Source of the DNA: Candidatus Binatia bacterium
GTDB taxonomy: Bacteria > Desulfobacterota > Binatia > UBA9968 > CAXXLF01
Assembly: GCA_963664015.2 (NCBI GenBank)
Contig: CAXXLF010000002.1
Location: forward strand, 1,216,001-1,280,000
DNA length: 64,000 nucleotides
Reading direction: 5' to 3'
The notes beneath the pieces were generated by a model that saw nothing but the letters and a program-made list of their open reading frames with translations, was not told the DNA's origin and did no database searches. The translations under genes and the position numbers were made by a program. This document shows positions 7,988-28,657 of this stretch, piece after piece. Numbering within the stretch: position 1 is the stretch's first letter; every line of letters starts with the position of its first letter.

Positions 7988-8347
7988 CTACCAAAACTTC
8001 CACCAACTAGGTTTGTTCCTTCCACATCCCTTGTATTTCTTCTTCACGCATTCACGGGCAAGTTCTTGTGCGGCAGAGATGTCGGTGGGGGTCATCAGTT
8101 TCGCAATAATGTCTCTGTTTTTGGATGCGCTCTTAGATTTCCCAGATGATACGGCAATATTTGCCCACATATGGGCATAGACATAGTCCTGTAAAACACC
8201 TTGTCCCGTGTGGTACATCAAACCCAGATTGAACTGGGCATCGGCATATCCCTGTTCCGCAAGGGGTGTCCATTCACGCAGAGCGGTTGCGTAGTCACCA
8301 CTTTGGGCAGCAGTTAGACCCTTTTGGAAATCAGCACTCCAACTCAT
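7988..8347 (-). CDS. Sel1-repeat protein (1 repeat); signal peptide detached by frameshift (uORF 8344-8406)
   Basis: ADAQFNLGLMY..GQGV.QDY; upstream MRNLTATICLTIALLLGITG* overlaps the start via ATGA. Confidence 0.8.
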   Translation of the reverse strand: MSWSADFQKGLTAAQSGDYATALREWTPLAEQGYADAQFNLGLMYHTGQGVLQDYVYAHMWANIAVSSGKSKSASKNRDIIAKLMTPTDISAAQELARECVKKKYKGCGRNKPSWWKFW

Positions 8348-8406
8348 CCCGTAATCCCAAGAAGCAGGGCAATCGTCAGGCAGATGGTGGCGGTCAGGTT
8401 TCTCAT

Positions 8407-8460
8407 AGGGAAAAGAGTTACACAGAATGGGGGATTTGGGTAGTCAGAATGAGATTATAC
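8407..8460 (-). repeat. 54-bp conserved Sel1 cassette spacer (other copies 9709-9762, 12266-12319, 23545-23598, 27695-27748, 28565-28618)
   Basis: Consensus gtataattcaattctgactacccaaatcccccattctatgtaactcttttccct between the KGC-stop and the next start codon; all six copies are 54 bp. Confidence 0.9.
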
Positions 8461-9708
8461 TCAACACCCTTTGTATTTCTTACGGACGCATTCACGGGCA
8501 AGGTCTTGTGTTTTTTCAAGTTGGGATGGGGTCAATAACTTCGCAACCAAATCTCTCACCTTCTCCCCTCCCTCATATCCATTAGATGCGGCAATATTCC
8601 CCCACATATGGGCATAGACATAGTCCTGGATGACACCTCGTCCCATGCCGTACATCACACCCAGATTGGACTGGGCAACGGCAAGCCCCTGCTTGGCAGC
8701 AAGTCGGTACCACTTCACCGCAGTCTTATAGTTCTGTGGAACACCTTGTCCCTTGGCGTACATCCAACCCAGATTGAACTGAGCCTCGGCATCCCCCTGT
8801 TCGGCAGCAAGTCTGTACCACTTCAGTGCAGTCTTGTAGTCCTGTGGAACACCCTCTCCTTTGCGGTACATCCAACCCAGATTGTTCTGGGCATCGGCAT
8901 CCCCCTGTTCGGCAGAAAGCGTGTACCACTTCACCGCAGCCCTATAGTCCTTTGGCACATTTTGTCCTTTTGCGTACATCAAACCCAGATTGTACTGGGC
9001 ATCGGCATTCCCCTGTTCGGCAGAAAGTCGGTACCACTTCACCGCAGTCTTATAATCCTGTGGGACACCTCGTCCTTTATCGTACATCACACCCAGATTA
9101 TACTGGGCAATGGCAAGCCCCTGTTCGGCAGCAAGTCTGAGCCACTTCACCGCAGTCTTATAGTCCGGTGGAACACCTTGTCCCTTGGCGTACATCAAAC
9201 CCAGATTGGACTGGGCATCGGCATCCCCCTGTTCGGCAGAAAGCGTGTACCACTTCACCGCAGCCCTATAGTCCTTTGGCACACCTTGTCCTTTTGCGTA
9301 CATAAAACCCAGATTGTACTGGGCATCGGCATTCCCCTGTTCGGCAGAAAGTCGGAACCACTTCACCGCAGTCTTATAGTTCTGTGGAACACCTTGTCCC
9401 TTGGCGTACATCCAACCCAGATTGAACTGAGCCTCGGCATCCCCCTGTTCGGCAGCAAGTCGGTACCACTTCACCGCAGTCTTATAGTTCTGTGGAACAC
9501 CCTCTCCTTTGTCGTACATCCAACCCACATTGTACTGGGCCTCGGCATATCCCTGTTCGGCAAGGGGTGTCCATTCACGCAGAGCAGTTGCGTAGTCTTT
9601 CTTGTTGTACGCATCCCATCCCTTCTGGAAGTCAGCACTCCACGACATCCCCGCACTTCCAAGAAGCACGGCAATGGTCAGGCAGATGGTGGCGGTCAGA
9701 CGTTTCAC
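8461..9708 (-). CDS. Secreted Sel1-repeat protein (9 repeats)
   Basis: Signal peptide; nine 36-aa AQxNLGxMYxxGxGVPQDYKTAVKWYRLAAEQG units; C-cap ARECVRKKYKGC. Confidence 0.92.
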   Translation of the reverse strand: MKRLTATICLTIAVLLGSAGMSWSADFQKGWDAYNKKDYATALREWTPLAEQGYAEAQYNVGWMYDKGEGVPQNYKTAVKWYRLAAEQGDAEAQFNLGWMYAKGQGVPQNYKTAVKWFRLSAEQGNADAQYNLGFMYAKGQGVPKDYRAAVKWYTLSAEQGDADAQSNLGLMYAKGQGVPPDYKTAVKWLRLAAEQGLAIAQYNLGVMYDKGRGVPQDYKTAVKWYRLSAEQGNADAQYNLGLMYAKGQNVPKDYRAAVKWYTLSAEQGDADAQNNLGWMYRKGEGVPQDYKTALKWYRLAAEQGDAEAQFNLGWMYAKGQGVPQNYKTAVKWYRLAAKQGLAVAQSNLGVMYGMGRGVIQDYVYAHMWGNIAASNGYEGGEKVRDLVAKLLTPSQLEKTQDLARECVRKKYKGC

Positions 9709-9762
9709 AGGGAAAAGAGTTACACAGAATGGGGGATTTGGGTAGTCAGAATTGAATTATAC

Positions 9763-9909
9763 TCAACACCCTTTGCATTTCTTACGGACGCACTCACGGG
9801 CAAGTCTCTGTGCTTCTGCGATTTGGGTAGGGGTCATTTGTTTCGCAACCATGTCTTGCAACTTCATTCCCTTCTTACTCCCATTGGACGCACCTAGGTT
9901 TCCCCACAT
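9763..9909 (-). pseudogene. Sel1 gene C-cap remnant
   Basis: Translates MWGNLGASNG...LARECVRKKCKGC*; begins 16 bp after the tRNA-Ser 3' end. Confidence 0.8.
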
Positions 9910-9925
9910 AAAGGTTGGGAAGTCG

Positions 9926-10016
9926 TGGCAGAGGGGGAGGGATTCGAACCCCCGTTACCCAATGGGCAACCTTGATTTCGAGTCAAGCGCCTTCAAGCGG
10001 GCTCGGCCACCTCTCC
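9926..10016 (-). tRNA. tRNA-Ser(CGA), carried inside the island
   Basis: GGAGAGGTGGCCGAG...CTTGA-CT-CGA-AA-TCAAG, long variable arm, GGTTCGAATCC, G discriminator and CCA; one A-C mismatch in the acceptor stem. Confidence 0.85.
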
Positions 10017-10165
10017 CCAATGAAATTGACAACTCCCAGCTTTGTGTAAATCAAATCTATCATTCTATCTTATATTTGATAACACTAAAGGCAGAAGGCT
10101 TACTACCGATAGAACCAACCAAATAATATGAATAGTAGTAGTAATAAAATGGAGGGATTAGAAGG

Positions 10166-11332: not shown

Positions 11333-11344
11333 ACTTGAGAATAG

Positions 11345-11467
11345 AGTGGTAATAGACAGGCCGTGGACCAGCTGAACGATGTGGAAAAGGTTAAAACTGA
11401 GGATCAGCCTCAGAGTGGTCACAAAACGGTCACAAACCGATTGGAGAGAGAGTCAGACTATGTCTAA
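11345..11467 (+). pseudogene. Probable C-terminal remnant of a tyrosine integrase with arm-type repeats
   Basis: SGNRQAVDQLND...GHKTVTN tail resembles phage integrase ends; GGTCACAAA occurs twice at 11417-11436. Confidence 0.4.
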
Positions 11468-11555
11468 GGCACTCTGAAAGTGTCTCTATGAGGAGATTTG
11501 GAGGTTTGGGGAGGGGTTCTATGGGACTGCGAGGATGGATTATGAGGGGGTTTTC

Positions 11556-12206
11556 TCAACACCCCTTGTAGTTCTTCTTCACGCATTCACGGGCAAGTCT
11601 CTGTGCGGTTTCAATTTGGGATGGGTTCATCCGTTTGGCAATGATGTCTCTGTTTTTAGATGCGTCCTTACTGTCCGCCGATGTTGCGGCGATGTTGTAC
11701 CACATATGGGCTTGAACATAGTCTTGCGGTACACCCTGACCTTCACCATACATGTACCCCAGATTGTACTGGGCAAGGGCATGCCCCTGTCCGGCAGCAA
11801 GTCTGAACCACTTCACCGCAGTCTTATAGTCCTGTGGAACACCCTCTCCTTTGTCGTACATCCAACCCACATTGTACTGGGCCTTGGCAAATCCCTGGTC
11901 GGCAGCAAGTCTGAACCACTTCAGTGTAGTCTTGTAGTCCTGTGGAACACCCTCTCCTTTGCCGTACATCCAACCCAGATTGTTCTGGGCATCGGCATCC
12001 CCCTGTTCGGCAGCAAGTCTGTACCACTTCAGTGCAGTCTTGTAGTCCTGTGGAACACCCTCTCTTTTGCGGTACATCCAACCCAGATTGTTCTGGGCAT
12101 CGGCATCCCCCTGTTCGGCAAGGGATTTCCATTCACGCAGAGCGGTTGCGTAGTCACCACTTTGGAGAGCAGTTAGACCCTTTTGGAAATCAGCACTCCA
12201 ACTCAT
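11556..12206 (-). CDS. Sel1-repeat protein (4 repeats); signal peptide detached by frameshift (uORF 12203-12265)
   Basis: Four Sel1 units; same ACGGGATGA frameshift and ATGA overlap as at 8344. Confidence 0.85.
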   Translation of the reverse strand: MSWSADFQKGLTALQSGDYATALREWKSLAEQGDADAQNNLGWMYRKREGVPQDYKTALKWYRLAAEQGDADAQNNLGWMYGKGEGVPQDYKTTLKWFRLAADQGFAKAQYNVGWMYDKGEGVPQDYKTAVKWFRLAAGQGHALAQYNLGYMYGEGQGVPQDYVQAHMWYNIAATSADSKDASKNRDIIAKRMNPSQIETAQRLARECVKKNYKGC

Positions 12207-12319
12207 CCCGTAATCCCAAGAAGCACGGCAATCGTCAGGTAGATGGTGGCGGTCATGTTTCTCATAGGGAAAAGAGTTACATAGAATGGGGGATTTGGGT
12301 AGTCAGAATTGAATTATAC

Positions 12320-12386
12320 TCAACACCCTTTGTATTTCTTACGTACGCATTCACGGGCAAGTTTCTAGAACTTCAGTGATTTGAAG
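12320..12386 (-). pseudogene. Degenerate Sel1 C-cap remnant
   Basis: LARECVRKKYKGC* directly before a 54-bp spacer. Confidence 0.75.
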
Positions 12387-12407
12387 CAAAACACACATTC
12401 CTAACTA

Positions 12408-13046
12408 TTATCTCAACCCTAGGACTTTTTCCCTCATCGCCTTTCGTTCCTCATCGTTAATGAGGGATTTTTCGTACATATCTTCTATGCGTTGAAGTTC
12501 CGTTTCTTGTCCCGAGGTTTCTTCCACTACCTTGTCCTCGGCTTCGGGCTCAATTGCCCACGACTTCCAAAGTGACGCCAGCGCCACTTGCAAGGGGGAG
12601 AGCGCCGGAACTTGCCTCGGTGTTTGTGATTCTCCATCAGATTTAGCGGGGATATCAATTCCCAACTTGGCAATCACATCTTTCAATTCCCTCTTATCCA
12701 CATCTCTGCCGATGAAACGACACAGTTGATCATCAAAAGAAGACGCACTGGCACAAGAAACAGCGTGGTAACCTTTGGAAATAAGTTCTTTGATATACAA
12801 TTTGTTATAAATAAAACCAAATACCAGATTATTCAAAAAAACAAACACTGGTTCGTTCGGTGCTAAGTTGGAAACAACCGCCCCGGTAATACAGGATAAA
12901 AAGGCGACAATTGCCGCCCACTTCCAATCACGACGGACAACCATCGGAAGGAAACTCCAAAATAGTGCGGTATAAGAAAACCCTACTGGCGCAGATTTTA
13001 CCTCTCCCGTGTTGTCGTTTTTAAAGGTGATTACAGCACTTGCCAT
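12408..13046 (-). CDS. Membrane protein (DUF2628/HrgC-like) with C-terminal SHOCT-like domain
   Basis: KSAPVGFS...FW..P...RRDWKWA, FIYNKLYIKELISKGY; C-terminal ELQRIEDMYEKSLINDEE. Confidence 0.65.
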   Translation of the reverse strand: MASAVITFKNDNTGEVKSAPVGFSYTALFWSFLPMVVRRDWKWAAIVAFLSCITGAVVSNLAPNEPVFVFLNNLVFGFIYNKLYIKELISKGYHAVSCASASSFDDQLCRFIGRDVDKRELKDVIAKLGIDIPAKSDGESQTPRQVPALSPLQVALASLWKSWAIEPEAEDKVVEETSGQETELQRIEDMYEKSLINDEERKAMREKVLGLR

Positions 13047-13100
13047 TTTTTCCTTTCTGAAGGTTAAGTTGCCTACTTATTTCCCACTATTTATCTTAAA

Positions 13101-13142
13101 AAGAGCAATCGTCAGGCAGATGGTGGCGAGGGTACGTTTCAT
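13101..13142 (-). pseudogene. Sel1 gene signal-peptide remnant
   Basis: MKRTLATICLTIAL then unrelated sequence; degenerate spacer upstream. Confidence 0.6.
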
Positions 13143-13242
13143 AGGGAGAGTCTGACAAAAGGCGGGGGATTAAGAAAGAGAAAACTTAATTTCCCTATCG
13201 CGGACTCATGTAATTCAATAATCCGCATACTTTGAATAATAT

Positions 13243-13430
13243 TTAAAACTGGAAAACTAAGTTATTGATGTTCTTAGAAGGTCTAGTTCTTCCACCCATG
13301 TTGGTGCCGCAATGTCCGCACACCATAATGTCTCTTAAAATGTAGAAGTGAGTAGGTCTGTTTACTTGTCCCTTCCGTTTCAAGTGACTCACTCGTCGTT
13401 GCTGGACATTGTGGTAGACAGTCTTGTCAA
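13243..13430 (-). pseudogene. Large serine recombinase zinc-ribbon fragment
   Basis: VDKTVYHNVQQRR...FYILRDIMVCGHCGTNMGGR resembles the recombinase Zn beta-ribbon. Confidence 0.55.
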
Positions 13431-13941
13431 CCAACCTTGGACATGAGACTTCCGCAGGTTCCTCTGTCTTAGAATCTGTAAACACATATCTGCCGTTATA
13501 GTATATGTTGCTCGACGTGCCTATTGTAGTGGTAAATGCGAATGCACTTCCAGCAGTCGAGTATCCAAGACAACTCGTCGTTTTTGAAACATCCACGATC
13601 CCTTGGATCGGATAACCTGATCCTCGCTACGTCCGACTGCATATAAACTTGTTCTTCCTGTTTCCGTGGTCCGGTAAACGACGAATTTTGATCGTACCGA
13701 TGCAGCATTACCTTGAAATTCAATCTGTATATTAGATACAAGATGTAGCCGCCTAGCTGTGTCAAGCACGTAGTTGGGGACCAGATCCATCCTTTTCACA
13801 AACTCGTTCCTTGTGAGTTTCATTACGTAATCGTCGATACCGCCGAGTTCTTTGCTTTCAAACAGCATCTCGTACTCTGATGTCGCAGTAAATAGGCCAG
13901 TCCATTCCCTGATTTGTCCTTCGTCGAGCAACTGAGCGGCT
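13424..13941. repeat. 518-bp direct repeat, copy 1 (copy 2 at 20794-21311)
   Basis: Near-identical sequences; about 7 transition differences counted by eye. Confidence 0.92.
13521..13941 (-). pseudogene. 5'-truncated duplicate of the oxygenase beta subunit
   Basis: Matches 20891-21311; lacks the first ~20 codons and the RBS. Confidence 0.85.
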
Positions 13942-13998
13942 TGCCTTCGGCGCCTTATGAAGCCTTATGCCCCTCTTGTAATCGTAGGCATGAATACC

Positions 13999-15717
13999 TT
14001 AATCCTTCTGCTCAAGCCCCAAACGCATACCTAGAAGGCGACTGGCGAGAACGACGAGGAGAATAAGGAAGACGGTGAAAACGCCGATAATGGCGGCCTG
14101 TTCCAGATTGCCCTCCGGAATGTAATCGAGCATCAGAAGGGAGAGGGTTTTCGTCTGATGGGTAGCCAGGAAAACAACCGAAGATACATCGCGCACCGCC
14201 GCGATGAATAGAATTAGCCCTACGGCCATCAGGGTCGGATTCAAAAGCGGCAACTGGATACGCCGAAAGGTGGAAGTCCAGGACGCCCCTGAAACCGCAG
14301 AAGCCTCCTCCAATTCACTGCTGATCTGCATGACCCCCGCCTTGACGATTTGGATCCCGACGGGCATCTCTTTGATGATGATAGCGAGGATGAGCACAAA
14401 GAGCGTGCCGTAGATGACCCTGAGGATACTACCCGATCCCAGAACTGCCCAGAGAAGGCCCAGACTCAGTAAAATCCCGGGCAGCGCCCAGGGCAACCAC
14501 GAAAGGAGGTCCATTAGCCCACGACCGGTAAAGCGGACCCGCACGATGCAGTAACTGACCAGCGCATAAAAGGTAACGCCCACCGCACTAGCCCCCACCC
14601 CAAGGACAAGGGTGTTCCATAGCGACCGCATGAAAGTCGGATCATCCACGGCTTCGATCCAGTGCCTCGTCGTCCATGTAGATTCCAAGTTGAAAAAGCC
14701 AAAGACCTCCATAAAGGTCCCCAGGAACAGAGCGCTCAAGGGTAAAAGAACCATGATCAGGATGAAGAGAAGGCATATGGAGAAAGTCAGCCAGCGCCAG
14801 GGGCCCAGGCTTAAAGTTCGGGACACATAACCTCGGCCGGTGATGGTGGTGTACTCCCTCCCGTGAAGAAGCACCCTCTGAAGCCATATCAAGACAAAAA
14901 TAACCACGAGAAAGATGCTTGACAGGGCCGTGGCCCGACCATAGAGGGGAGGCTCCCAGTTGATATAGTCGAAAATTTTGGTCGGCACTACGAAGAGCCC
15001 CGCCGGGATTCCTAACACCAGTTCAATCTCAAGTGACTCCAGGCTCTTGATAAAGCCCAGGATCGTGGAAGCCAGGATTGCCGGGGCCAGGAGCGGGACC
15101 GTGATACGCAACAGGGTTCCTAACTTGTTACTCCCGGAGGTTAGAGCGGCCTCTTCCAGGGCCGCATCCATGGCTTTGAAGGCCGGTGTCATCAACAGAA
15201 ACCGTATGGAGGTACTGAAGGCCAGGTGACACCAGACAATGCCCCAGTAAGAGAAAATGTCAAAGGGCGCCCTGGAGAGGCCGAAGATGCCTACGAGAAA
15301 CTTATTGAGTACCCCATTATGAGGATCCAAGAGGAGGATCCACCCCATGGTCATGGGCAACAGGGGCAGAAAAAACCCCAACCAAAGTACCAATTCCAGG
15401 AAACCCCTGAAGGGTGTATCGGTCCGGGTGACGACCCAGACAAAGAAAATGGCCAGAACGGTGGTAATGACTATCCGGACAACGGCTAAGCTAAAGGTAT
15501 TGGCCAGGACCAAGGGGAGGGCTACATCACTAAAGGCTGCAACCCACCCTTGGATACCCCAGGCAACCGGTTGTCCCGGCCGAGTAATAGTAAAACTTTT
15601 GAGGAAAATGAGACTGACAGGATAGAGCGTCAGGAGGGCCATCAGCACCATTAAGAGGGGTAAGAATACCCTTACCCAGGATGGCCCTGACCCTCGCCTA
15701 AACCCCGCCAAAAACAT
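13999..15717 (-). CDS. ABC transporter permease (FbpB/ThiP-like, two TM domains)
   Basis: Two EAA loops (LEEAALTSGS, LEEASAVSGA); strongly hydrophobic. Confidence 0.9.
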   Translation of the reverse strand: MFLAGFRRGSGPSWVRVFLPLLMVLMALLTLYPVSLIFLKSFTITRPGQPVAWGIQGWVAAFSDVALPLVLANTFSLAVVRIVITTVLAIFFVWVVTRTDTPFRGFLELVLWLGFFLPLLPMTMGWILLLDPHNGVLNKFLVGIFGLSRAPFDIFSYWGIVWCHLAFSTSIRFLLMTPAFKAMDAALEEAALTSGSNKLGTLLRITVPLLAPAILASTILGFIKSLESLEIELVLGIPAGLFVVPTKIFDYINWEPPLYGRATALSSIFLVVIFVLIWLQRVLLHGREYTTITGRGYVSRTLSLGPWRWLTFSICLLFILIMVLLPLSALFLGTFMEVFGFFNLESTWTTRHWIEAVDDPTFMRSLWNTLVLGVGASAVGVTFYALVSYCIVRVRFTGRGLMDLLSWLPWALPGILLSLGLLWAVLGSGSILRVIYGTLFVLILAIIIKEMPVGIQIVKAGVMQISSELEEASAVSGASWTSTFRRIQLPLLNPTLMAVGLILFIAAVRDVSSVVFLATHQTKTLSLLMLDYIPEGNLEQAAIIGVFTVFLILLVVLASRLLGMRLGLEQKD

Positions 15718-16865: not shown

Positions 16866-16979
16866 TATTCTACCCTCCTCATTAATATTTGCCTCCAGAA
16901 CCAGCGGGGGTCCGCCAGTCCCAGTGCAGTTAATTTAAAAACACCATCATTTCATTCGCTTTGTTTTAGAAACTTCTCC

Positions 16980-20638: not shown

Positions 20639-20890
20639 TGATTATCCATCTCCTCCGCAAATGCCACCCACCTGACCGTAGAAATGCTTAAGTCCATAAG
20701 AGAATTCCCAAAACACTTTTGAGGGCACAGTATCGACTCTCTGCCTTAAGTGATTTTCGTCTATTTCACGCTTATATTACACCATTTCAAAGATTGTCAA
20801 CCAACCTTGGACATGAGACTTCCGCAGGTTCCTCTGTCTTAGAATCTGTAAACACATATCTGCCGTTATAGTATGTGTTGCTCGACGTGC

Positions 20891-21370
20891 CTATTGTAGT
20901 GGTAAATGCGAATGCACTTCCAGCAGTCGAGTATCCAAGACAACTCGTCGTTTTTGAAACATCCACAATCCCTTGAATCGGATAACCTGATCCTCGCTAC
21001 GTCCGACTGCATACAAACTTGTTCTTCCTGTTTCCGTGGTCCGGTAAACGACGAATTTTGATCGTACCGATGCAGCATTACCTTGAAATTCAATCCGTAT
21101 ATTAGATACAAGATGTAGCCGCCTAGCTGTGTCAAGCACGTAGTTGGGGACCAGATTCATCCTTTTCACAAGCTCGTTCCTTGTGAGTTTCATTACGTAA
21201 TCGTCGATACCGCCGAGTTCTTTGCTTTCAAACAGCATCTCGTACTCTGATGTCGCAGTAAATAGGCCAGTCCATTCCCTGATTTGTCCTTCGTCGAGCA
21301 ACTGAGCGGCTCTAAAAAGCAACTCTTCTACAGCGCGATAGGGGGACAGGTCTGATCGTGTCTTTGCCAT
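20891..21370 (-). CDS. Ring-hydroxylating oxygenase beta subunit (MsmB-like, NTF2 fold)
   Basis: AAQLLD...EW..LF, RLHLVSN, GRSED.V, RRVVLDTR. Confidence 0.8.
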   Translation of the reverse strand: MAKTRSDLSPYRAVEELLFRAAQLLDEGQIREWTGLFTATSEYEMLFESKELGGIDDYVMKLTRNELVKRMNLVPNYVLDTARRLHLVSNIRIEFQGNAASVRSKFVVYRTTETGRTSLYAVGRSEDQVIRFKGLWMFQKRRVVLDTRLLEVHSHLPLQ

Positions 21371-21599
21371 GGTAAAACTTGCTAGGTTCAAGTGCGTACA
21401 GTTGACCCAGCGACTTATAGTTCTGATCCGCAGGCCGTGTCAAGGTCTAGTAAGCTGACGTTGGATTATACCAGGTGGCATTTTACTTTTTGATATATTA
21501 CAGTACTCAAGTTTTCACCTTTGGTACGTAGATTTGTTAGAGATTAAACACCTGGTGCCAGGGGGACTCAGTAGATATAGTATGAATGGAGGGCGTCTT

Positions 21600-22829: not shown

Positions 22830-22911
22830 CTCAAAAATGACTTGGCTACTCTAACTCAAGTATTGAATCTCCATTCTTGTAGAGGCACGCTCGAGTGGGT
22901 TACGACCACCA

Positions 22912-23544
22912 CTACCAAAACTTCCACCAACTAGGTTTGTTCCTTCCACATCCCTTGTATTTCTTCTTCACACATTCACGGGCAAGTTTTTGTGCTTTTT
23001 CAAGTTGGGATGGAGTCATTTTATTCGCAATCCTATCTCTCAACTGCCCCGCTTGCTCACTTCCATTAGACGAAGCAAGGTTCCCCCACATATGGGCATA
23101 GACATAGTCCCGTAGAACACCTCGTCCTTGGAGGTACATCCCACTCAGAAATAACTGGGCATTAGCATACCCCTGTTCGGCAGCAAGTCTGTACCACTTC
23201 GCCGCAGTCTTATAGTCCGGGAGACCGCCTTGTCCAAGATAGTACATCAAACCCAGATTGAACTGAGCATCGGTATTCCCCTGTTCGGCAGCAAGTCTGT
23301 ACCACTTCAGTGCAGTTTCATAGTCCTGTGGAACACCTTCTCCGTTGCGGTACATAAAACCCAGATTGTACTGGGCATCGGCATCCCCCTGTTCAGCAAG
23401 AGGTGTCCATTCACGCAGAGCAGTTGCGTAGTCCCAACTCTGGTATGCAGTTAGACCCTTTGGGAAATCAGCACTCCACGACATCCCCGCACTTCCAAGA
23501 AGCACGGCAATCGTCAGGCAGAGTGTGGCGGTCAGGTTTTTCAT
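22912..23544 (-). CDS. Secreted Sel1-repeat protein (3 repeats, WWKFW tail)
   Basis: Signal peptide, three Sel1 units, C-cap extended by GRNKPSWWKFW. Confidence 0.9.
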   Translation of the reverse strand: MKNLTATLCLTIAVLLGSAGMSWSADFPKGLTAYQSWDYATALREWTPLAEQGDADAQYNLGFMYRNGEGVPQDYETALKWYRLAAEQGNTDAQFNLGLMYYLGQGGLPDYKTAAKWYRLAAEQGYANAQLFLSGMYLQGRGVLRDYVYAHMWGNLASSNGSEQAGQLRDRIANKMTPSQLEKAQKLARECVKKKYKGCGRNKPSWWKFW

Positions 23545-23598
23545 AGGGAAAAGATTTACATAAAATGGGGATTTGGGGTAGTCAGAATTGAATTATAC

Positions 23599-24201
23599 TC
23601 AACACCCTTTGTATTTCTTACGTACGCATTCACGGGCAAGGTCTTGTGCTTTTTCAATTTGGGATGGAGTCATTTTCTTCGCAACAAAATCTCTCAACCC
23701 CCCCGCTCCCTCATATCCATTAGATACGGCAATGTTCGACCACATATGGGCATAGACATAGTCCTGTAAAACACCTTGTCCCTTGTAGTACATCACACCC
23801 AGATTGGACTGGGCATCGGCATCCCGCTGTTCAGCAGCAAGTCTGTACCACTTCAGTGTAGTCTTGTAGTCCTGTGGAACACCCTCTCCTTTGCCGTACA
23901 TCCAACCCAGACTGTTCTGGGCATCGGCATCCCCCTGTTCGGCAGCAAGTCTGTACCACTTCAATGCAGTTTCATAGTCCTGTGGGACACCTCGTCCTTC
24001 GTGGTACATCAAACCCAGATTGAACTGGGCCTTCGCATCCCCCTGTTCGGCAAGGGGTGTCCATTCACGCAGAGCAGTTGCGTAGTCTTTCTTTTCGTAA
24101 GCGACGAATCCTTTTTGATAGTCATCCGCGTGGGCCGTCACTCCCACGAGCAAGGCGATACCGAGGATTGCGAAAAACAGTTTATGGTGACTTTTGACCA
24201 T
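23599..24201 (-). CDS. Secreted Sel1-repeat protein (3 repeats, different signal peptide)
   Basis: MVKSHHKLFFAILGIALLVGVTAHA leader followed by three Sel1 units. Confidence 0.88.
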   Translation of the reverse strand: MVKSHHKLFFAILGIALLVGVTAHADDYQKGFVAYEKKDYATALREWTPLAEQGDAKAQFNLGLMYHEGRGVPQDYETALKWYRLAAEQGDADAQNSLGWMYGKGEGVPQDYKTTLKWYRLAAEQRDADAQSNLGVMYYKGQGVLQDYVYAHMWSNIAVSNGYEGAGGLRDFVAKKMTPSQIEKAQDLARECVRKKYKGC

Positions 24202-24208
24202 TTCGCCA

Positions 24209-24288
24209 CCATCCTCCTACGTCACAGCCATGCTGTCAAATGCCGGGATTGACGTCCTATGGCTTAGCGTTATAATCCGCGCTGGGGG
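24209..24288. repeat. 80-bp direct repeat with promoter and RBS (copy 2 at 29451-29530)
   Basis: 76/80 identical by eye; TTGACG-16-TATAAT on +, AGGAGG on -. Confidence 0.85.
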
Positions 24289-24629
24289 CCTGCCCACCCC
24301 TAGCGCGAATAAATCCGCCTGGTGGCAATACATATTAGGGTAGGCCCGAAACAATTATCGATGTTGGAACAAATATTACGCAGAGGGCAAAAGAGAATGA
24401 GCAAAAACGCAAAATATGAAATCTCCAAAGTCACCCGGGGTTGCCCTGGTCCGCCCAATGATGCTTTCGGAAATCCGCCGCTAGTCGATCGTAGTTTGTC
24501 AATCTCTACGTACGAAAGTCGTTCTTCCCCCTCTTTCTGCCTTTTAAGATATGAAAATACTTGAGTGTTTCTCCATTGGTTTCCTTTGCTCGCACTTATA
24601 GTATATGCAAGAAACGGATAGGGTGTTGG

Positions 24630-27011
24630 ATGGATCAGATAACCTCTGCGAATTGCTGGAAAGACTTTGAGCAATCCCTTGAATCTCTCGGGGATAAGGA
24701 GAAAGGTGACGCATTTGAAGAACTGACCCACCTTCATCTTCTAACTGACCCAACGTTTTCCACCAAGCTTAAGAATGTTTGGCACCACTCCGTTGTTCCT
24801 CAGCTAATAGTCGACGAACTTGGGTTGCAACGACCTGAGATCGGTGTGGATCTTGTAGCACAAGACCGAGACGGCAAATACTGGGCAATTCAGTGCAAGT
24901 TTCATCAGGACAGAACTAGGAATGTTAGATATGAAGAACTAAACAGTTTCTTCAGTCTTACTGAACGGGATAAAACGTATCAAAAACTCTCTCATCGACT
25001 GGTATGTACCTCAGCAAATGGGGTCAGTCCTGCAGTCAATAAGGTGCATGGAGAAAAACTTGGTTATCTCACCTCCTTAGAATTCTCAAAACTCGGTCAG
25101 GAGGAGTTTGATGCCTTTAGAAAGTTTCTCGCCGGAGGTCATCCTGTACCGGAACCCAAGGTTCCACGAAAGCACCAAGGAGTTGCATTGGACAAATGCG
25201 AGACCTTCTTCAAAGACCCAAACAATACCCGTGGAAAACTTATTCACCCATGCGGGTCGGGTAAAAGTCTCATTGGATACTGGGCCTCTCAGAGACTGAA
25301 CGCAAAGACCGTCCTGATTGCCGTCCCTAGTCTTGCATTGGTTCGTCAGACGTTGGGTGATTGGACACGAGAGGCAGTAGCAAACGGAATCAATATGGAC
25401 TGGATCGCCGTTTGTAGTGATGATGATGTTTCGAATTCTGATGACCCTGCAATGCAATCTGTCGATCTTGGAATTGAAGTTGATACAGATCCAGAGATCA
25501 TTTCTAGTTTTCTTCGAAAACCATCAACAGGAACGAAGATAGTTATTACGACATACCAGAGCGCCCTTGCAGTTAGTGAGAGTGCCCAGAAGGCAGGGAC
25601 CGTATTCGACCTTGGTGTCTACGATGAAGCACATAAGACCGTTGGACAAAAAGACAAAGCATTCGCTCATCTTCTCTATGATAAGAATGTCGAGGTCAGG
25701 AAACGGGTTTTTATGACTGCTACAGAACGTCAGTTCCAAGGGAACTCTGACGAATACCTATCGATGAATGATGAAGGTATCTATGGAACGATTATTGATG
25801 AACTATCATTCAAGGCGGCGTTGGCACAAGATCCACCAATTGTCAGCGACTATAAGATCGTTTCAACGATTGTTACAGAATCAGAAATAAAAGAACTTAT
25901 AGATAATAACAAGTTTGTTAAATGCGATGGAAAAGAGTGGACGATTGAAGGTGATGCATCGACCTTAACGTCACTGATTGTACTTAGAAAATTGATCAGA
26001 GACCGTGATCTTAAACATGTTGTCTCCTTTCATAGCAGCATCAAACGATCCCGCGATTTTCAGAAACTTAATTCAGATTTTAATAAAGGGGATGGTACCT
26101 TTGATGATCTGACTTCTTTTCATGTTTCGGGGAAAGATAGTACCGGAATTCGAGCGCAGGAGCTTGAGCGGTTTGTAAATGTTGAACCGAGTTTGATTAC
26201 CAATGCACGGTGTTTAACGGAAGGTGTTGATGTTCCGGCAATTGATGCCGTTCTCTTTGCGGATCCAAAGCAGAGTAAAATTGATATTGTTCAGGCAGCG
26301 GGACGTGCATTGCGGAGATTCGATGGTAAGGACTTCGGGTATATCATCGTCCCCGTAGTTTTGGATGAAGAGTCAGAAGACCCAAGTGATGATGCCTTCA
26401 AGCAGATCATTACAGTAATATCTGCACTTGGGATGAGTGATGACCGGATCATTGATGAGTTTAGGACAATCGCAAATGGGGGGAATCCTGGTAAGGAAAG
26501 AATAAATGATATCGTTCTCCCTGAGATCTACCGAGCGAAGTTTGCGCACTTGATTTCAAATATTGGAATTCGAATCTGGGATCGTTTGAGTTTTGGTTGG
26601 GCAAAGGGGTTTGAAAAATTAAAGAGGTATGTGGAACAGAACGATAATCCCCGAGTTCACAACCGTTACACCGATGAGGATGGGTTCAAATTAGGTGGTT
26701 GGGTTAGCAATCGGCGCATGGAGTACAGAAAAGGAAAGTTGGCACGGGATCGTATTCAACAATTAGAATCGATTAAAGGTTGGGTCTGGGATCCGATCGA
26801 AGCGGACTTTCAAGAGGGTTTGGAGAAACTAAAGAGGTATGTGGAACAGAACGATAATCCCCGAGTTCCTACTAGTTACACCGATGAGGATGGGTTCAAA
26901 TTAGGTACTTGGATTAACAATCGGCGCATGGAGTACAAAAACGGACAGTTGGAACCGGATCGTATTCAACAATTAGAATCGATTAAAGGTTGGGTCTGGA
27001 AGTCGCGGTAG
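24630..27011 (+). CDS. Mrr-like nuclease + DEAH (SF2) helicase + two helicase-associated (HA) domains
   Basis: GVDLVA...AIQCK; PCGSGKS; DEAH; TAT; CLTEGVDVP; QAAGRALR; C-terminal 70-aa repeats (26621-26789 and 26831-26999). Confidence 0.85.
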   Translation: MDQITSANCWKDFEQSLESLGDKEKGDAFEELTHLHLLTDPTFSTKLKNVWHHSVVPQLIVDELGLQRPEIGVDLVAQDRDGKYWAIQCKFHQDRTRNVRYEELNSFFSLTERDKTYQKLSHRLVCTSANGVSPAVNKVHGEKLGYLTSLEFSKLGQEEFDAFRKFLAGGHPVPEPKVPRKHQGVALDKCETFFKDPNNTRGKLIHPCGSGKSLIGYWASQRLNAKTVLIAVPSLALVRQTLGDWTREAVANGINMDWIAVCSDDDVSNSDDPAMQSVDLGIEVDTDPEIISSFLRKPSTGTKIVITTYQSALAVSESAQKAGTVFDLGVYDEAHKTVGQKDKAFAHLLYDKNVEVRKRVFMTATERQFQGNSDEYLSMNDEGIYGTIIDELSFKAALAQDPPIVSDYKIVSTIVTESEIKELIDNNKFVKCDGKEWTIEGDASTLTSLIVLRKLIRDRDLKHVVSFHSSIKRSRDFQKLNSDFNKGDGTFDDLTSFHVSGKDSTGIRAQELERFVNVEPSLITNARCLTEGVDVPAIDAVLFADPKQSKIDIVQAAGRALRRFDGKDFGYIIVPVVLDEESEDPSDDAFKQIITVISALGMSDDRIIDEFRTIANGGNPGKERINDIVLPEIYRAKFAHLISNIGIRIWDRLSFGWAKGFEKLKRYVEQNDNPRVHNRYTDEDGFKLGGWVSNRRMEYRKGKLARDRIQQLESIKGWVWDPIEADFQEGLEKLKRYVEQNDNPRVPTSYTDEDGFKLGTWINNRRMEYKNGQLEPDRIQQLESIKGWVWKSR

Positions 27012-27203
27012 GCATCCAATCCTAATGAAAGTCTCAGACACCCAAGAGTTCGTTAGGAGAATATTCTATTCCCACAGCGAATAGGTTAATGCGTACTTGG
27101 GTGACTTTAGACGCTACAAACGCAATGCCAACTAGCAAATACGCTATAAGTGCGACGCCATAGATTGAACCAGTTAGAAACCACTCCAAAATACCCTGCA
27201 AGC

Positions 27204-27694
27204 TCAACACCCTTTGTATTTCTTACGGACGCATTCACGGGCAAGTTTATGTGCTTCAGCGATTTGGGCAGGGGTCATCAGTTTCGCAATAATGTCTCTG
27301 TTTTTGGATGCGCTCTTAGATTTCCCAGATGATGCGGCAATATTCGTCCACATATGGGCATAGACATAGTCCTGTGGAAGACCTTGTCCTTCTTTATACA
27401 TCCAACCCAGATTGAGCTGGGCAACGGCAATTCCCTGTTCGGCAGCCAGTCTGTACCACTTCACCGCAGTCTTATAGTCCTGGAGAACACCTAGTCCTTC
27501 ATCGTACATCCAACCCAGATTGTACTGGGCCTTGGCACCCCCCTGTTCGGCAGCCAGTCTGTACCACTTCACCGCAGCCTTATAATTCTGTCGAATGCGG
27601 CACGTCCCTTCTGGAAGTCAGCACTCCACGACATCCCCGCACTTCCAAGAAGCACGGCAAGGGTCAGGCAGATGGTGGCGGTCAGGTTTCTCAT
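27204..27694 (-). pseudogene. Sel1 gene with out-of-frame internal deletion (2 repeats left)
   Basis: ATG 27694 gives MRNLTAT...FQKGRAAFDRIIRLR*; Sel1 units resume in another frame from GTG 27572. Confidence 0.8.
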
Positions 27695-27748
27695 AGGGGA
27701 AAGAGTTACATAGAATGGGGGATTTGGGTAGACAGAATGGAATTCTAC

Positions 27749-28564
27749 TCAACACCCCTTGTAGTTTTTCTTCACGCAATCACGGGCAAGGTCTTGTGCT
27801 TTTTCAAGTTGGGATGGGGTCATTTTCTTCGCAACCAAATCTCTCAACTCCCCCCCTCTCTCATATCCATTAGATGAAGCAAGGTTCCCCCACATATGAG
27901 CATAGACAGAGTCCAGTGGAACACCTAGTCCTTGGTGGTACATCACACCCAGATTGAACTGGGCAGTGGCATATCCCTGTTCGGCTGCAAGTCTGTACCA
28001 CTTCACCGCAGTCTTATAGTCCTGTGGAACACCTTCTCCCCTGCGGTACATCAAACCCAGATTGTTCTGGGCCTTGGCATGTCCCTGTCCGGCAGCAAGT
28101 CTGTACCACTTCACCGCAGTCTTATAGTCCTGTGGAACACCTTCTCCATTATCGTACATCAAACCCAGATTGTACTGGGCATTGGCAAATCCCTGTTTGG
28201 CAGCAAGTGTCCACCACTTCACCGCAGTCTTATAGTCCTGTATAACACCTTGTCCCTTGTAGTACATCACACCCAGACTGTACTGGGCAGAGGCCTGCCC
28301 CTGTTCGGCAGCAAGTCGGTACCACTCCACCGCAGTCTCATAGTCCTGTGGAACACCCTCTCCTTTGTCGTACATCAAACCCAGAAAGAGCTGGGCAGCG
28401 GCATCTCCCTGCTCGGCAAGGGGTGTCCATTCACGCAGAGCAGTTGCGTAGTCGCCACTATCGTATGCGGTAACTCCCTTTTGTAAATCAGCACTCCAAC
28501 TCACCCCCGTACTTCCAAGAAACACGGCAATCGTCAGGCAGATGGTGGCGGTCAGGTTTCTCAT
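27749..28564 (-). CDS. Secreted Sel1-repeat protein (5 repeats)
   Basis: Signal peptide, five Sel1 units, C-cap ARDCVKKNYKGC. Confidence 0.92.
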   Translation of the reverse strand: MRNLTATICLTIAVFLGSTGVSWSADLQKGVTAYDSGDYATALREWTPLAEQGDAAAQLFLGLMYDKGEGVPQDYETAVEWYRLAAEQGQASAQYSLGVMYYKGQGVIQDYKTAVKWWTLAAKQGFANAQYNLGLMYDNGEGVPQDYKTAVKWYRLAAGQGHAKAQNNLGLMYRRGEGVPQDYKTAVKWYRLAAEQGYATAQFNLGVMYHQGLGVPLDSVYAHMWGNLASSNGYERGGELRDLVAKKMTPSQLEKAQDLARDCVKKNYKGC

Positions 28565-28618
28565 CGGGAAAAGAGTTACATAGAATGGGGGATTTGGGTA
28601 GTCAGGATGGAGTTCTAC

Positions 28619-28657
28619 TCAACATCCTTTGTATTTCTTACGGACGCATTCACGGGC
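28619..28657 (-). pseudogene. Sel1 C-cap remnant
   Basis: ARECVRKKYKGC* only, directly before a 54-bp spacer. Confidence 0.75.

What the first reader, a model, noticed from the sequence alone, without database searches (positions are those of the whole stretch)
7988..28657. Cassette-like, combinatorially shuffled Sel1-repeat gene system spread over four arrays
Seen: seven genes with 1, 9, 4, 3, 3, 2 and 5 repeats, plus four fragments, all on the minus strand. They follow one grammar: 54-bp spacer, leader, SADFQKG..DYATALREW N-cap, n x 108-bp module, DYVYAHMW..ARECVRKKYKGC C-cap. Near-identical DNA modules recur at different positions in different genes: 8791-8914 vs 11997-12120 differ at 1 nt; the NVGWMYDKGEG module is repeat 1 of the 8461 gene and repeat 3 of the 11556 gene; the WMYGKGEG..TTLKW module is shared by the 11556 and 23599 genes. 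Variation concentrates at a few residues (AQ[YFSNL]N[LV]G[WFLVY]MY[DARGHY][KNETLQ]G). C-caps are also mixed (SSGKSKSASKN, SNGYEG, with or without the WWKFW tail). Inference: a recombination-diversified family of secreted binding scaffolds, loosely analogous to VLR/TALE repeat shuffling, carried by a mobile element. No reverse transcriptase or integron integrase is present in the window.
Basis: partly seen in the sequence, partly recalled or inferred. Interest (0 to 1): 0.82.

Follow-up and report, generated by a model that had tools for sequence, protein, structure and literature searches.

The report
Mosaic Sel1-repeat gene family on island
A mobile genomic island carries seven related genes for secreted Sel1-repeat scaffold proteins whose 108-base repeat units have been swapped among copies by ordinary recombination, a pattern already described for such gene families in other bacteria.

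Summary
There are 27 in-register 108-bp Sel1 modules in seven minus-strand genes (1, 9, 4, 3, 3, 2, 5). Six junctions are conserved: C-cap end, TGA, 54-nt spacer, leader. There are also three C-cap relics and one leader relic. Module cores cluster neither by gene nor by position, and caps are incongruent. Tracts of 80-180 nt that are 96-100% identical link different positions of different genes. All arrays lie in a 34.7-kb island integrated at tRNA-Val, with a 49-bp direct repeat, a tyrosine integrase, a primase, type I R-M and an Mrr-type nuclease/helicase. Variation sits on one face of helix A, but the same positions vary across the whole family. No RT, adenine bias, attC-like structure, G4 motif or single expression site was found. 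The protein grammar is widespread (at least 7888 database relatives; tandem arrays in 21 of 79 fetched loci). The same evolutionary pattern is published for H. influenzae SlrV/msf. Verdict: a paralogous secreted SLR family evolving by unequal crossing-over and gene conversion. It is a new member of a known kind, not a dedicated cassette system.

The parts
6842..6890 (-). Distal island border: 49-nt exact copy of the 3' part of tRNA-Val (att-type direct repeat)
   Evidence: D13, 100% identical to 41503-41551
7983..8347 (-). g1 body: 1 Sel1 module, type-A C-cap and the GRNKPSWWKFW tail. It starts at an internal ATG because the leader is out of frame.
   Evidence: Four-part chimera by nearest relative (g3 5' end, g5.r3, g6 cap, g4 tail)
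8344..8406 (-). g1 leader stub (20 codons plus stop). A 1-nt deletion in a short G run uncouples it from the body.
8407..8460 (-). 54-nt spacer between g2 and g1
8461..9708 (-). g2: GTG start, in-frame leader, 9 modules with a 324-nt higher-order duplication, type-B C-cap
9766..9912 (-). Relic 1: a complete but frameshifted C-cap without repeats. It starts about 14 nt after the 3' end of tRNA-Ser and is followed by the TGA, spacer and g2.
9926..10016 (-). tRNA-Ser (CGA) inside the island, abutting relic 1
11556..12206 (-). g3 body: 4 modules and a divergent type-A C-cap. It has the same leader frameshift as g1 (leader stub 12203-12265).
12321..12375 (-). Relic 2: the last ~50 nt of a C-cap upstream of the g3 spacer
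13105..13142 (-). Leader relic (MKRTLATICLTIA...) with no Sel1 body behind it
   Evidence: D8
22907..23544 (-). g4: in-frame leader, 3 modules, type-B C-cap and the GRNKPSWWKFW tail
   Evidence: identical to database protein P0074
23599..24201 (-). g5: a different leader (MVKSHHK...AHA) and its own upstream region, 3 modules, type-B C-cap
27204..27572 (-). g6 body: 2 modules and a type-A C-cap, with no in-frame leader (pseudogene by internal deletion)
27569..27694 (-). g6 leader stub: leader plus the start of the N-cap, 41 codons then a stop, out of frame with the body
27749..28564 (-). g7: in-frame leader, 5 modules, type-B C-cap. Modelled at pLDDT 94.1.
28621..28662 (-). Relic 3: the last ~40 nt of a C-cap upstream of the g7 spacer
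40141..41409 (+). Tyrosine integrase of the island
   Evidence: PF00589, E 1.6e-18
41505..41581 (-). tRNA-Val (CAC), the integration target. Its 3' 47 nt are repeated at 6842-6890.

Best explanation
This is a lineage-specific expansion of a very widespread subfamily of small Sec-exported Sel1-like-repeat (SLR) solenoid proteins. Each has a signal peptide, a two-helix N-cap, n x 36-aa SLR units, and a C-cap ending in Cys-x8-Cys. The genes are cargo in the distal half of a 34.7-kb island integrated at tRNA-Val.

The whole unit is copied each time: end of the preceding C-cap, stop, 54-nt upstream region, leader, gene. This gave head-to-tail arrays. The host's general homologous recombination then acts on the many exact shared stretches of 25 nt or more. 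Unequal crossing-over changes repeat number. Ectopic gene conversion and non-allelic crossover move sub-module to multi-module tracts between paralogues, so each gene is a patchwork. Insertions and deletions have split the arrays and left relics, and 3 of 7 copies have lost the link to their leader.

The proteins most likely act as periplasmic or extracellular protein-binding scaffolds. Their specificity would be set by the exposed face of helix A, where nearly all variation lies.

Shown: anatomy, mosaicism, the island, the fold. Inferred: the recombination pathway, export, binding function, and any adaptive value of the variation.
For: Anatomy.

Mosaicism:
- Only 5 of 27 modules have their nearest neighbour in the same gene, and all five are in g2.
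- On the module tree, gene labels need 17 changes against a shuffled mean of 16.5.
- With junction columns removed, modules cluster neither by gene (16 changes; 238 of 500 shuffles as low) nor by position (10 changes; 200 of 500).
- Near-identical tracts are out of positional register: 129 nt with 1 mismatch, 130 with 2, 182 with 6, 65 with 0.
- Low-divergence segments are sharply bounded. Examples are 2/127 mismatches inside vs 47/197 outside, and 4/166 vs 32/158. Permutations reached the observed value 0 of 1000 times in 7 of 8 comparisons.
- g1 changes its nearest relative four times along 460 nt.
- g1 and g3 differ by 4.8% at the 5' unit but 24% in the C-cap. The g2 5' unit is nearest the g6 leader (9.6%), yet their C-caps are of different types (28%).

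Substrate: all 21 gene pairs share exact 25-mers.

Island.

Fold:
- AlphaFold gives pLDDT 94.1 and pTM 0.85, with regular helix A / helix B pairs.
- The best structural match is LpnE, 6deh, TM 0.84, rmsd 1.8 over 249 columns.
- PDB sequence hits are SLR proteins.

Variation:
- The hypervariable codons are 9, 11, 14, 18, 21 and 22. Their pN/pS is 1.38 against 0.60 for the rest.
- They map to the residue before helix A and to helix A positions 2, 5, 9, 12 and 13. By my hand calculation this is a 100-degree arc of the helical wheel.

Generality:
- 504 relatives in genome contigs.
- At least 7888 proteins at E<=1e-20.
- The same leader and caps occur in L001, L002, L004, L023, L026, L028 and P0109.
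- 21 of 79 loci hold two or more SLR ORFs.
- 211 plasmid records hold relatives.

Precedent: H. influenzae SlrV/msf (PMC4792463, abstract, sections 5 and 7, and passages read).
Against: - The PHI test for recombination within the 108-nt module is not significant once first and last modules are removed (1374 of 2000 permutations as low). The significant all-module result (0 of 2000) came from the cap-adjacent columns. Exchange is therefore shown by tracts and incongruence, not by intra-module compatibility.
- The core-module tree is poorly resolved (17 of 23 inner branches below 80). Lack of clustering is partly lack of signal.
- Several comparisons pair internal with last modules, which inflates contrast at the ends.
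- pN/pS of 1.38 is crude: the modules are non-independent and no model was fitted. It does not separate diversifying selection from relaxed constraint.
- Solvent exposure and the concave face were not computed, because no coordinates were available to scripts.
- Signal peptides were judged by eye, and no sigma-70-type promoter was found in the junctions.
- No ligand, expression or population data exist.
- The frameshifts of g1 and g3 lie in a short G run and could be sequencing errors.
Confidence: 0.75

Rival explanations
1. Programmed cassette variation. The leaderless or truncated copies (g1, g3, g6) and relics would be silent donors whose modules are copied into expressed genes at elevated frequency. 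This would give population-level variation of a secreted binding or antigenic scaffold, in the style of pilE/pilS, vlsE or msp2.
For: - 3 of 7 copies keep intact repeats but lack an in-frame leader.
- g3 shares its repeats 1, 2 and 3 with intact g2 and g5 at 0-1 mismatches.
- The minimum cross-gene module distance (1 of 108) is lower than in any of 21 other multi-gene loci, where it is 4-36.
- All copies are in direct orientation on a mobile island.
Against: - Four intact genes each have their own leader and upstream region, so there is no single expression locus.
- No dedicated factor was found. There is no RT and no other recombinase besides the island integrase in 57 ORFs scanned.
- No G4 motif lies near the arrays, and the junction has no conserved structure.
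- Direction and rate of transfer cannot be read from one genome.
- The shared frameshift of g1 and g3 is equally explained by decay plus conversion.
Confidence: 0.09
2. Assembly or sequencing artefact. Repeat numbers, module order, mosaic tracts or the frameshifts would come from mis-assembly or homopolymer errors in a repeat-rich region.
For: - 108-nt repeats at 80-99% identity, and 117-168-nt near-identical tracts within g2, are hard for short reads.
- The g1/g3 frameshift is a one-base change in a G run.
- Frameshifted SLR ORFs also appear in other MAG loci, L026 and L028.
Against: - g4 is recorded on a contig of 3,357,617 bp, which suggests a chromosome-scale assembly.
- Each array is anchored in unique flanks.
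- All 27 modules are in frame and in register.
- The mosaic also involves unique cap and tail sequences.
Confidence: 0.07
3. An array of periplasmic SLR immunity proteins against a type VI phospholipase-D effector (Tli5/PA5086-5088 type), accumulated as orphan immunity genes on an island.
For: - The genes encode tandem paralogous exported SLR proteins.
- PA5087 and PA5086 appear among the structural and sequence hits (5jkp, 6lch, 5jjo).
- The island also carries defence genes.
Against: - The matches to the immunity proteins are weak: E 1.5e-06 to 4.8e-06 by sequence and TM 0.45 by structure. Generic SLR proteins score 1e-109 to 1e-42 and TM 0.74-0.84.
- No T6SS, PLD or other effector gene is among the 57 ORFs scanned.
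Confidence: 0.04
4. Simple tandem duplication and divergence, with no exchange between copies.
For: - Within g2, repeats r2/r8 (1 difference) and r3/r6 (4 differences) are recent internal duplicates with a 324-nt period.
- Several other loci show mostly within-gene nearest neighbours, for example L015 34 of 37 and L073 17 of 18.
Against: - 22 of 27 modules have their nearest neighbour in another gene.
- Near-identical tracts lie at different repeat positions in genes 3-15 kb apart.
- The caps are incongruent.
Confidence: 0.03
5. Diversity-generating retroelement or integron cassette array.
For: - Variation at the hypervariable codons is mostly in the first two codon positions, for example NNT at codon 9 and NNC at codon 14.
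- A conserved element lies between the genes.
Against: - No RT is present.
- No module has adenine at the variable sites. The A share of mismatches is 0.17-0.40 for all 27 candidate templates.
- The only tyrosine recombinase is tRNA-adjacent and 11.6 kb or more from the arrays. It scores 47 bits against a cut-off of 220 on the XerA/integron-integrase model.
- The junction has no predicted hairpin.
Confidence: 0.01

Closest known systems
Variable Sel1-like-repeat family SlrV / msf of Haemophilus influenzae (Kress-Bennett et al. 2016, PMC4792463; abstract, sections 5 and 7 and search passages read; figures and supplements not seen)
   Same: - N-terminal signal peptide.
- A variable number of 36-aa SLR motifs per gene.
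[quoted passage not shown] - Motifs of one protein scatter over the motif tree and often sit nearer to motifs of other proteins.
- The authors propose motif duplication and contraction, rearrangement of modular units, and horizontal transfer.
   Different: - Here the genes lie on a tRNA-Val island of an unidentified, probably environmental bacterium, not at a chromosomal locus of a naturally transformable pathogen.
- In H. influenzae the whole-gene, signal-peptide and C-terminus trees agree. Here the N-side and C-side caps are themselves incongruent.
- Exchange here is more recent (1-2 mismatches over about 130 nt).
- Pseudogenes and relics are described here.
- Direct sequence relationship to SlrV was not tested, because no SlrV sequence was on hand.
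Helicobacter pylori SLR / Hcp (Helicobacter cysteine-rich protein) family (Ogura et al. 2007, PMC1941758, passages read; HcpC structure 1ouv)
   Same: - A paralogous family of secreted SLR proteins, expanded in one lineage.
- Repeat units said to be 'prone to duplication'.
- Positive selection reported, with sites mapped onto convex and concave surfaces.
- HcpC is a structural match (TM 0.69).
   Different: - The Hcp genes are dispersed and have a disulfide in every repeat. Here cysteines occur only in the C-cap, and the genes are in tandem arrays with a conserved junction.
- Identity to HcpC is only 23%.
Solved bacterial SLR proteins: LpnE (6deh), LceB (8sxq), Oxalobacter formigenes Sel1 proteins (6ok3, 6ur7, 6ork), EsiB/c5321 (4bwr)
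   Same: The same alpha/alpha solenoid: TM 0.74-0.84, 33-39% identity, and phmmer E down to 1.7e-109. From my own knowledge, not from a call, these are described as protein-protein interaction modules.
   Different: None of these is reported, in anything I read, as part of a mosaic tandem array. Their ligands say nothing specific about this family's ligand.
MerG (phenylmercury resistance protein, NCBIfam NF033786)
   Same: It is the best NCBIfam model for g7 and g5 (162 and 102 bits), and the match covers the C-terminal cap. It is a small SLR protein of the same size class.
   Different: The scores are far below the 350-bit cut-off, and no mer genes are in the window. These genes are not MerG equivalogs.
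Programmed variation systems (pilE/pilS, vlsE, VLR assembly, TALE repeat recombination)
   Same: Repeat or segment donors in the same genome, mosaic products, and variation at binding positions.
   Different: No single expression site, no dedicated machinery, and no evidence of elevated rate or direction. The resemblance is in the outcome only.

Membership tests
Sel1-like repeat (SLR) proteins, Pfam PF08238 | Tandem ~36-aa repeats matching the Sel1 model above its gathering score | tested here: met
   All 7 genes match, at 34.3 to 367.1 bits against a cut-off of 30.7. The matched stretches number 1, 9, 4, 3, 3, 2 and 5.
Sel1-like repeat (SLR) proteins, Pfam PF08238 | Alpha/alpha solenoid fold like solved SLR proteins | tested here: met
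   The g7 model has pLDDT 94.1. Foldseek gives 6deh at TM 0.84 and rmsd 1.8, and 6ok3, 6ur7, 8sxq and 1ouv at TM 0.69-0.79.
Exported (Sec) SLR subgroup | Cleavable N-terminal signal peptide in frame with the repeats | tested here: inconclusive
   By inspection, 4 of 7 genes (g2, g4, g5, g7) have a basic n-region, a hydrophobic core and an SWS/AHA site in frame. g1, g3 and g6 do not. No signal-peptide predictor was available.
SlrV/msf-type variable SLR gene family (PMC4792463) | [quoted passage not shown] | tested here: met
   All seven C-caps end ...A(R)(E/D)CV(K/R)K(K/N)YKGC.
SlrV/msf-type variable SLR gene family (PMC4792463) | Several genes in tandem at a non-core locus | tested here: met
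   Four arrays inside a tRNA-Val island.
SlrV/msf-type variable SLR gene family (PMC4792463) | Motifs do not cluster by gene | tested here: met
SlrV/msf-type variable SLR gene family (PMC4792463) | Strain-to-strain variation in gene and repeat number | not testable with these tools
   No close relative was found: the best is 74% identical and no database hit exceeds 73% apart from the window's own g4.
SlrV/msf-type variable SLR gene family (PMC4792463) | Sequence relationship to H. influenzae SlrV proteins | not tested
   No SlrV sequence was available from a tool, and the paper's supplements are closed.
tRNA-integrated genomic island | Tyrosine integrase next to a tRNA gene, with a direct repeat of the tRNA 3' end at the far border | tested here: met
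   Integrase at 40141-41409 (PF00589). tRNA-Val at 41505-41581. A 49-nt exact repeat at 6842-6890 (D13).
Silent-cassette antigenic variation (pilE/pilS type) | One expression locus plus promoterless partial donor copies | tested here: not met
   There are four full genes with leaders. Three leader-uncoupled copies exist, but each keeps the same upstream junction.
Silent-cassette antigenic variation (pilE/pilS type) | Cis element or dedicated factor that raises the conversion rate (for example a G4 motif) | tested here: not met
   No G4 motif lies within or next to the arrays. The one motif in the island, at 15669-15693, is unrelated.
Diversity-generating retroelement | Reverse transcriptase and a template repeat with adenine-specific mismatches | tested here: not met
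   No RT was found among 57 ORFs. The A share of mismatches is 0.17-0.40 for every module taken as template. The rest of the genome was not seen.
Integron cassette array | IntI-type integrase adjacent to cassettes separated by attC hairpin sites | tested here: not met
   The integrase is tRNA-adjacent and 11.6-33 kb away, scoring 47 bits against a cut-off of 220. The junction alignment gives zero predicted pairs.
T6SS Tli5-type SLR immunity proteins | Close similarity to PA5086-5088 and a neighbouring Tle5/PLD effector | tested here: not met
   E 1.5e-06 to 4.8e-06 by sequence and TM 0.45 by structure. No effector gene is in the window.
MerG (NF033786) | Score above the equivalog cut-off | tested here: not met
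   161.9 and 102 bits against a cut-off of 350.

The most novel reading that the evidence does not exclude
The island-borne array could be a working diversity generator. Leaderless copies and relics would serve as a module library, and frequent RecA-dependent conversion into the four exported genes would give a clonal population a changing repertoire of secreted binding scaffolds. The island would move that repertoire between hosts. This would be a pilS-like logic in a non-pathogen SLR family.
Probability: 0.09. Interest if true: 0.6.

Novelty: new member of a known kind. Interest (0 to 1): 0.35.

Why it matters
This is a clean, well-bounded example of how repeat-protein families evolve in bacteria. 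It holds seven paralogues, relics, two cap types and dated conversion tracts, all inside one mobile island. It could serve as a test bed for measuring ectopic conversion rates, and for asking whether helix-A variation changes ligand specificity in SLR scaffolds. Such scaffolds are widely listed as 'eukaryotic-like proteins' of symbionts but are rarely given ligands. It does not reveal a new mechanism.

Tried and rejected
1. PHI test on all 27 modules was significant (0 of 2000). Restricted to the 15 internal modules it was not (1374 of 2000; thinned set 1813 of 2000). I no longer use it as evidence for intra-module recombination.

2. The first max-chi-square run included out-of-register flanks and merely outlined the homologous region. 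I discarded it and repeated it on in-register repeats.

3. DGR idea: no adenine bias and no RT.

4. The spacer as an RNA or attC-like element: RNAalifold gave zero pairs on 6 window copies plus 3 homologue upstreams. Rfam gave only the two tRNAs.

5. Junction promoters: the sigma-70 scans found none on the minus strand in the junctions, and counts did not exceed shuffles.

6. The spacer 23-mer was found in 0 of 79 fetched loci.

7. A second att repeat for tRNA-Ser: none.

8. Synteny with the closest homologue loci: only 1 blastn HSP lay outside the arrays (a YgjP-like gene, L008).

9. PADLOC: the Sel1 proteins gave only a spurious low-complexity-type match to PtuA with no matched stretch.

11. 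The organism could not be named. The window's genome is not among the fetched loci, and the nearest homologue is in an Alphaproteobacteria MAG (74%).

The supplements of PMC4792463 (motif tables) could not be seen.

Full report
**What is there**

The minus strand between 7983 and 28662 holds seven genes of one family, in four arrays. Call them g1 to g7:
- g1 7988-8347
- g2 8461-9708
- g3 11556-12206
- g4 22912-23544
- g5 23599-24201
- g6 27204-27572
- g7 27749-28564

A six-frame scan for the Sel1 core finds 27 modules. All are on the minus strand, all lie in these genes, and none lies elsewhere in the window. They number 1, 9, 4, 3, 3, 2 and 5 per gene, in one 108-nt register. Tandem Repeats Finder reports period 108 in every array, and an additional 324-nt period in g2. 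All seven match Pfam Sel1 (PF08238) above its cut-off, with the same numbers of stretches.

**Junctions, relics and broken copies**

Six junctions share one unit: the end of a C-cap, TGA, exactly 54 nt, then a leader (alignment). The spacer core occurs five times, against none expected.

Upstream of three arrays the unit begins with a C-cap that has no gene in front of it:
- a complete but frameshifted cap at about 9766-9912, starting some 14 nt after tRNA-Ser
- about 50 nt at 12321-12375
- about 40 nt at 28621-28662

A leader without a body lies at 13105-13142 (D8).

- g1 and g3 share a one-base deletion in a short G run. Their leader (20 codons) ends in a stop, and the body starts at an internal ATG.
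- g6 has a 41-codon leader stub that is out of frame with a two-repeat body after an internal deletion.
- g5 has an unrelated leader and upstream region.

So four of the seven genes are intact exported-protein genes.

**Setting**

tRNA-Val (41505-41581, minus strand) has its 3' 47 nt repeated exactly, within a 49-nt repeat, at 6842-6890 (D13). A tyrosine integrase lies next to the tRNA (40141-41409, PF00589).

Between the repeats lie:
- a Prim-Pol/AAA_25 primase-helicase
- a type I restriction-modification system with a YgjP-like gene
- an Mrr_cat-helicase protein that matches restriction-enzyme models
- an aromatic-acid type catabolic and transport block
- the four Sel1 arrays

The arrays are therefore cargo of a 34.7-kb integrative island, so 'carried by a mobile element' is right. 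Among 57 ORFs scanned with Pfam (17, 18, 22) there is no reverse transcriptase and no second recombinase.

**Is the family really shuffled?**

Yes, at the level of tracts.
- Only 5 of 27 modules have their nearest neighbour in the same gene, and all five are internal duplicates within g2. Mean distances within genes (21.7 of 108, n=59) and between genes (24.0, n=292) barely differ.
- On a maximum-likelihood module tree, gene labels need 17 changes against a shuffled mean of 16.5. First and last modules do form clades (2 changes; 0 of 500 shuffles as low).
- That positional signal comes from the cap-adjacent columns. With columns 1-12 and 88-108 removed, modules cluster neither by gene (16 changes; 238 of 500) nor by position (10 changes; 200 of 500). 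Supported pairs then cross both gene and position: g2.r1 with g3.r3, and g3.r1 with g2.r7, g3.r2 and g5.r2. The tree is weakly resolved (17 of 23 inner branches below 80), so this is partly absence of signal.

Direct evidence comes from long near-identical tracts that ignore module borders and positions:
- 129 nt with 1 mismatch (g2 repeats 7-8 vs g3 repeats 1-2)
- 130 nt with 2 mismatches (g3 vs g5)
- 78 nt with 1 mismatch (g2 repeat 1 vs g3 repeat 3)
- 182 nt with 6 mismatches (5' units of g1 and g3)
- 105 nt with 3 mismatches (C-caps of g1 and g6)
- 82 nt with 1 mismatch (3' tails of g1 and g4)
- 65 nt with 0 mismatches

These tracts are sharply bounded against a background of about 20% divergence. 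Examples are 2/127 mismatches inside vs 47/197 outside, and 4/166 vs 32/158. Permutation reached the observed value 0 of 1000 times in 7 of 8 in-register comparisons, and 88 of 1000 in the eighth.

A sliding-window painting shows g1 changing its nearest relative four times: g3, then g5.r3, then g6, then g4. It also shows g3 built from g2.r7, g5.r2 and the g2.r1 core, plus a unique 3' part that is more than 20% divergent.

The caps are incongruent too. g1 and g3 differ by 4.8% in the 5' unit but 24% in the C-cap. The 5' unit of g2 is nearest the g6 leader (9.6%), although their C-caps belong to two types about 28-36% apart.

One caveat applies. A PHI test was significant on all modules (0 of 2000) but not on internal modules alone (1374 of 2000). 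I do not claim recombination inside the 108-nt unit from it.

**What varies**

Amino-acid entropy peaks at module positions 9, 11, 14, 18, 21 and 22 in my register, which is G-x-A-x-AQ-x-NLG-x-MY-x-x-G. These codons have pN/pS 1.38, against 0.60 for the other 30.

The AlphaFold model of g7 is confident (pLDDT 94.1, pTM 0.85). It shows a regular helix A / loop / helix B pattern. The six positions are the residue before helix A and helix A positions 2, 5, 9, 12 and 13. On a helical wheel they span about 100 degrees, opposite the conserved A, L, G, M and Y. This is my hand calculation. In SLR and TPR solenoids helix A lines the concave groove, which I state from established knowledge and did not compute here.

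The same positions are the 'x' columns in the consensus of 18 homologues from other sources. The pattern therefore belongs to the family, not to this locus. The crude ratio cannot separate selection from relaxed constraint.

**No dedicated mechanism**

- No module behaves as a DGR template. The adenine share of mismatches is 0.17-0.40 for all 27.
- The junction has no consensus structure (0 pairs).
- No G4 motif lies by the arrays.
- Rfam finds only the two tRNAs.
- All 21 gene pairs share exact 25-mers (4 to 166 start positions). That is ample substrate for general homologous recombination.

**Comparison outside the window**

The best 79 loci come from many phyla, and the best is 74% identical, in an Alphaproteobacteria MAG (L001). 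The window's own genome is not among them.

The protein database holds at least 7888 relatives at E<=1e-20, and the candidate list was saturated. g4 itself appears as P0074 on a contig of 3,357,617 bp.

The whole protein grammar recurs in L001, L002, L004, L023, L026, L028 and P0109. It includes a leader of the type MRNLTATICLTI.VLLGS, an N-cap ...DFATALREWTPLAEQG, and a C-cap ...MTP.QI..AQ.LARECV.KKYKGC.

The 23-nt spacer core is absent from all 79 loci. However, the proximal ~45 nt of the spacer can be recognised upstream of single-copy homologues in L001 and L023. The spacer is therefore largely the gene's own upstream region, copied with each duplication.

Of the 79 loci, 21 hold two or more SLR ORFs. 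The share of modules whose nearest neighbour is in the same ORF ranges from 2 of 11 (L026) to 34 of 37 (L015). The window (5 of 27; minimum cross-gene distance 1) is at the mixed, recent end. Relatives also occur on 211 plasmid records, all below 60% identity.

The closest solved structures are LpnE (TM 0.84), the Oxalobacter Sel1 proteins, LceB, EsiB and HcpC. The best NCBIfam model is MerG, far below its cut-off.

**What is known**

Kress-Bennett et al. 2016 (PMC4792463; I read the abstract, sections 5 and 7, and search passages) describe the H. influenzae SlrV/msf family. [quoted passage not shown] Motifs of one protein are dispersed over the motif tree, often nearer to motifs of other proteins. 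The authors attribute this to motif duplication and contraction, rearrangement of modular units and horizontal transfer.

Ogura et al. 2007 (PMC1941758; passages read) report lineage-specific expansion and positive selection in H. pylori SLR genes.

I searched the paper library four times:
- Sel1-like repeat with gene conversion and paralog
- Sel1 with sponge symbiont and eukaryotic-like proteins
- Sel1-like with H. pylori, positive selection and Hcp
- Sel1 with tandem, repeat number, recombination and genomic island

I found no description of an island-borne SLR array with dated conversion tracts. These searches cover open-access text only.

**Verdict**

It is wrong in suggesting a special cassette system.

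The most likely mechanism is unit duplication, followed by unequal crossing-over and ectopic gene conversion by the general recombination machinery, with decay of some copies. The likely function is periplasmic or extracellular protein binding through the helix-A face. The ligand is unknown.

This is a new member of a known kind, of moderate interest as a tidy model locus.

**Left open**
- read-level validation
- the rest of the genome
- solvent exposure
- expression

Noticed in passing
window 6842-6890 and 41503-41551; island 6842-41551: A 49-nt exact direct repeat of the tRNA-Val 3' end bounds a 34.7-kb island. The island carries an integrase, a Prim-Pol/AAA_25 primase, type I R-M with a YgjP-like gene, and an Mrr_cat-helicase nuclease.
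   Followed up: yes
window 9926-10016 and 9766-9912: A tRNA-Ser (CGA) lies inside the island. A full, frameshifted C-cap relic starts about 14 nt after its 3' end. No second copy of the tRNA-Ser 3' end exists in the window, so how the two came to abut is unexplained.
   Followed up: partly
window 13424-13940 and 20794-21310: A direct repeat of about 0.5 kb at 98-99% identity. One copy is a truncated ring-hydroxylating dioxygenase beta-subunit gene and the other is full length. They bracket a 7.4-kb block holding an ABC permease, a solute-binding protein, a gentisate/5-aminosalicylate-type dioxygenase, a DHDPS-like gene and a UbiD-family decarboxylase. It looks like a duplication-insertion scar.
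   Followed up: partly
window 24203-24288 and 29445-29530: An 86-nt repeat (93%) lies immediately upstream of g5 and of a 99-aa ORF with two CxxC pairs (29155-29454). It contains a Shine-Dalgarno-like GGAGG on the minus strand and a TTGACG-16-TATAAT match on the plus strand.
   Followed up: no
window 1925-2055: Three tandem copies of a 41-nt unit. Each contains TTGACA and TATAAT-like hexamers, giving a triplicated promoter-like element.
   Followed up: no
window 48308-51937: Three tandem MFS transporter paralogues whose 5' ends share a 236-nt repeat at 68-74% identity.
   Followed up: no
window 26605-26999: A 210-nt tandem duplication (about 90%) encodes two helicase-associated (HA) domains at the C-terminus of the Mrr_cat-helicase gene.
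   Followed up: no
window 28493-28564 vs L001 4901-4972: Between g7 and its closest homologue in another genome, the leader is the best conserved part at the DNA level (67 of 72 nt, 93%). The repeats are 84% identical, the N-cap 76% and the C-cap 69%. This is unusual for a signal peptide. The cause could be nucleotide-level constraint or a recent 5' exchange, and it is open.
   Followed up: partly
window 12408-13046: A 212-aa predicted membrane protein with no Pfam match sits directly behind the orphan leader relic. Its only match is a weak one (E 5.5e-4) to an Erum7620/ECH_0207-family model.
   Followed up: no
L026 9842-13123; L028 8045-11388: Other genomes (Gammaproteobacteria and Oxydemutatoraceae MAGs) also hold tandem SLR genes with overlapping out-of-frame ORFs. 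Frameshifted copies may be common in such arrays, or may be common assembly errors.
   Followed up: partly
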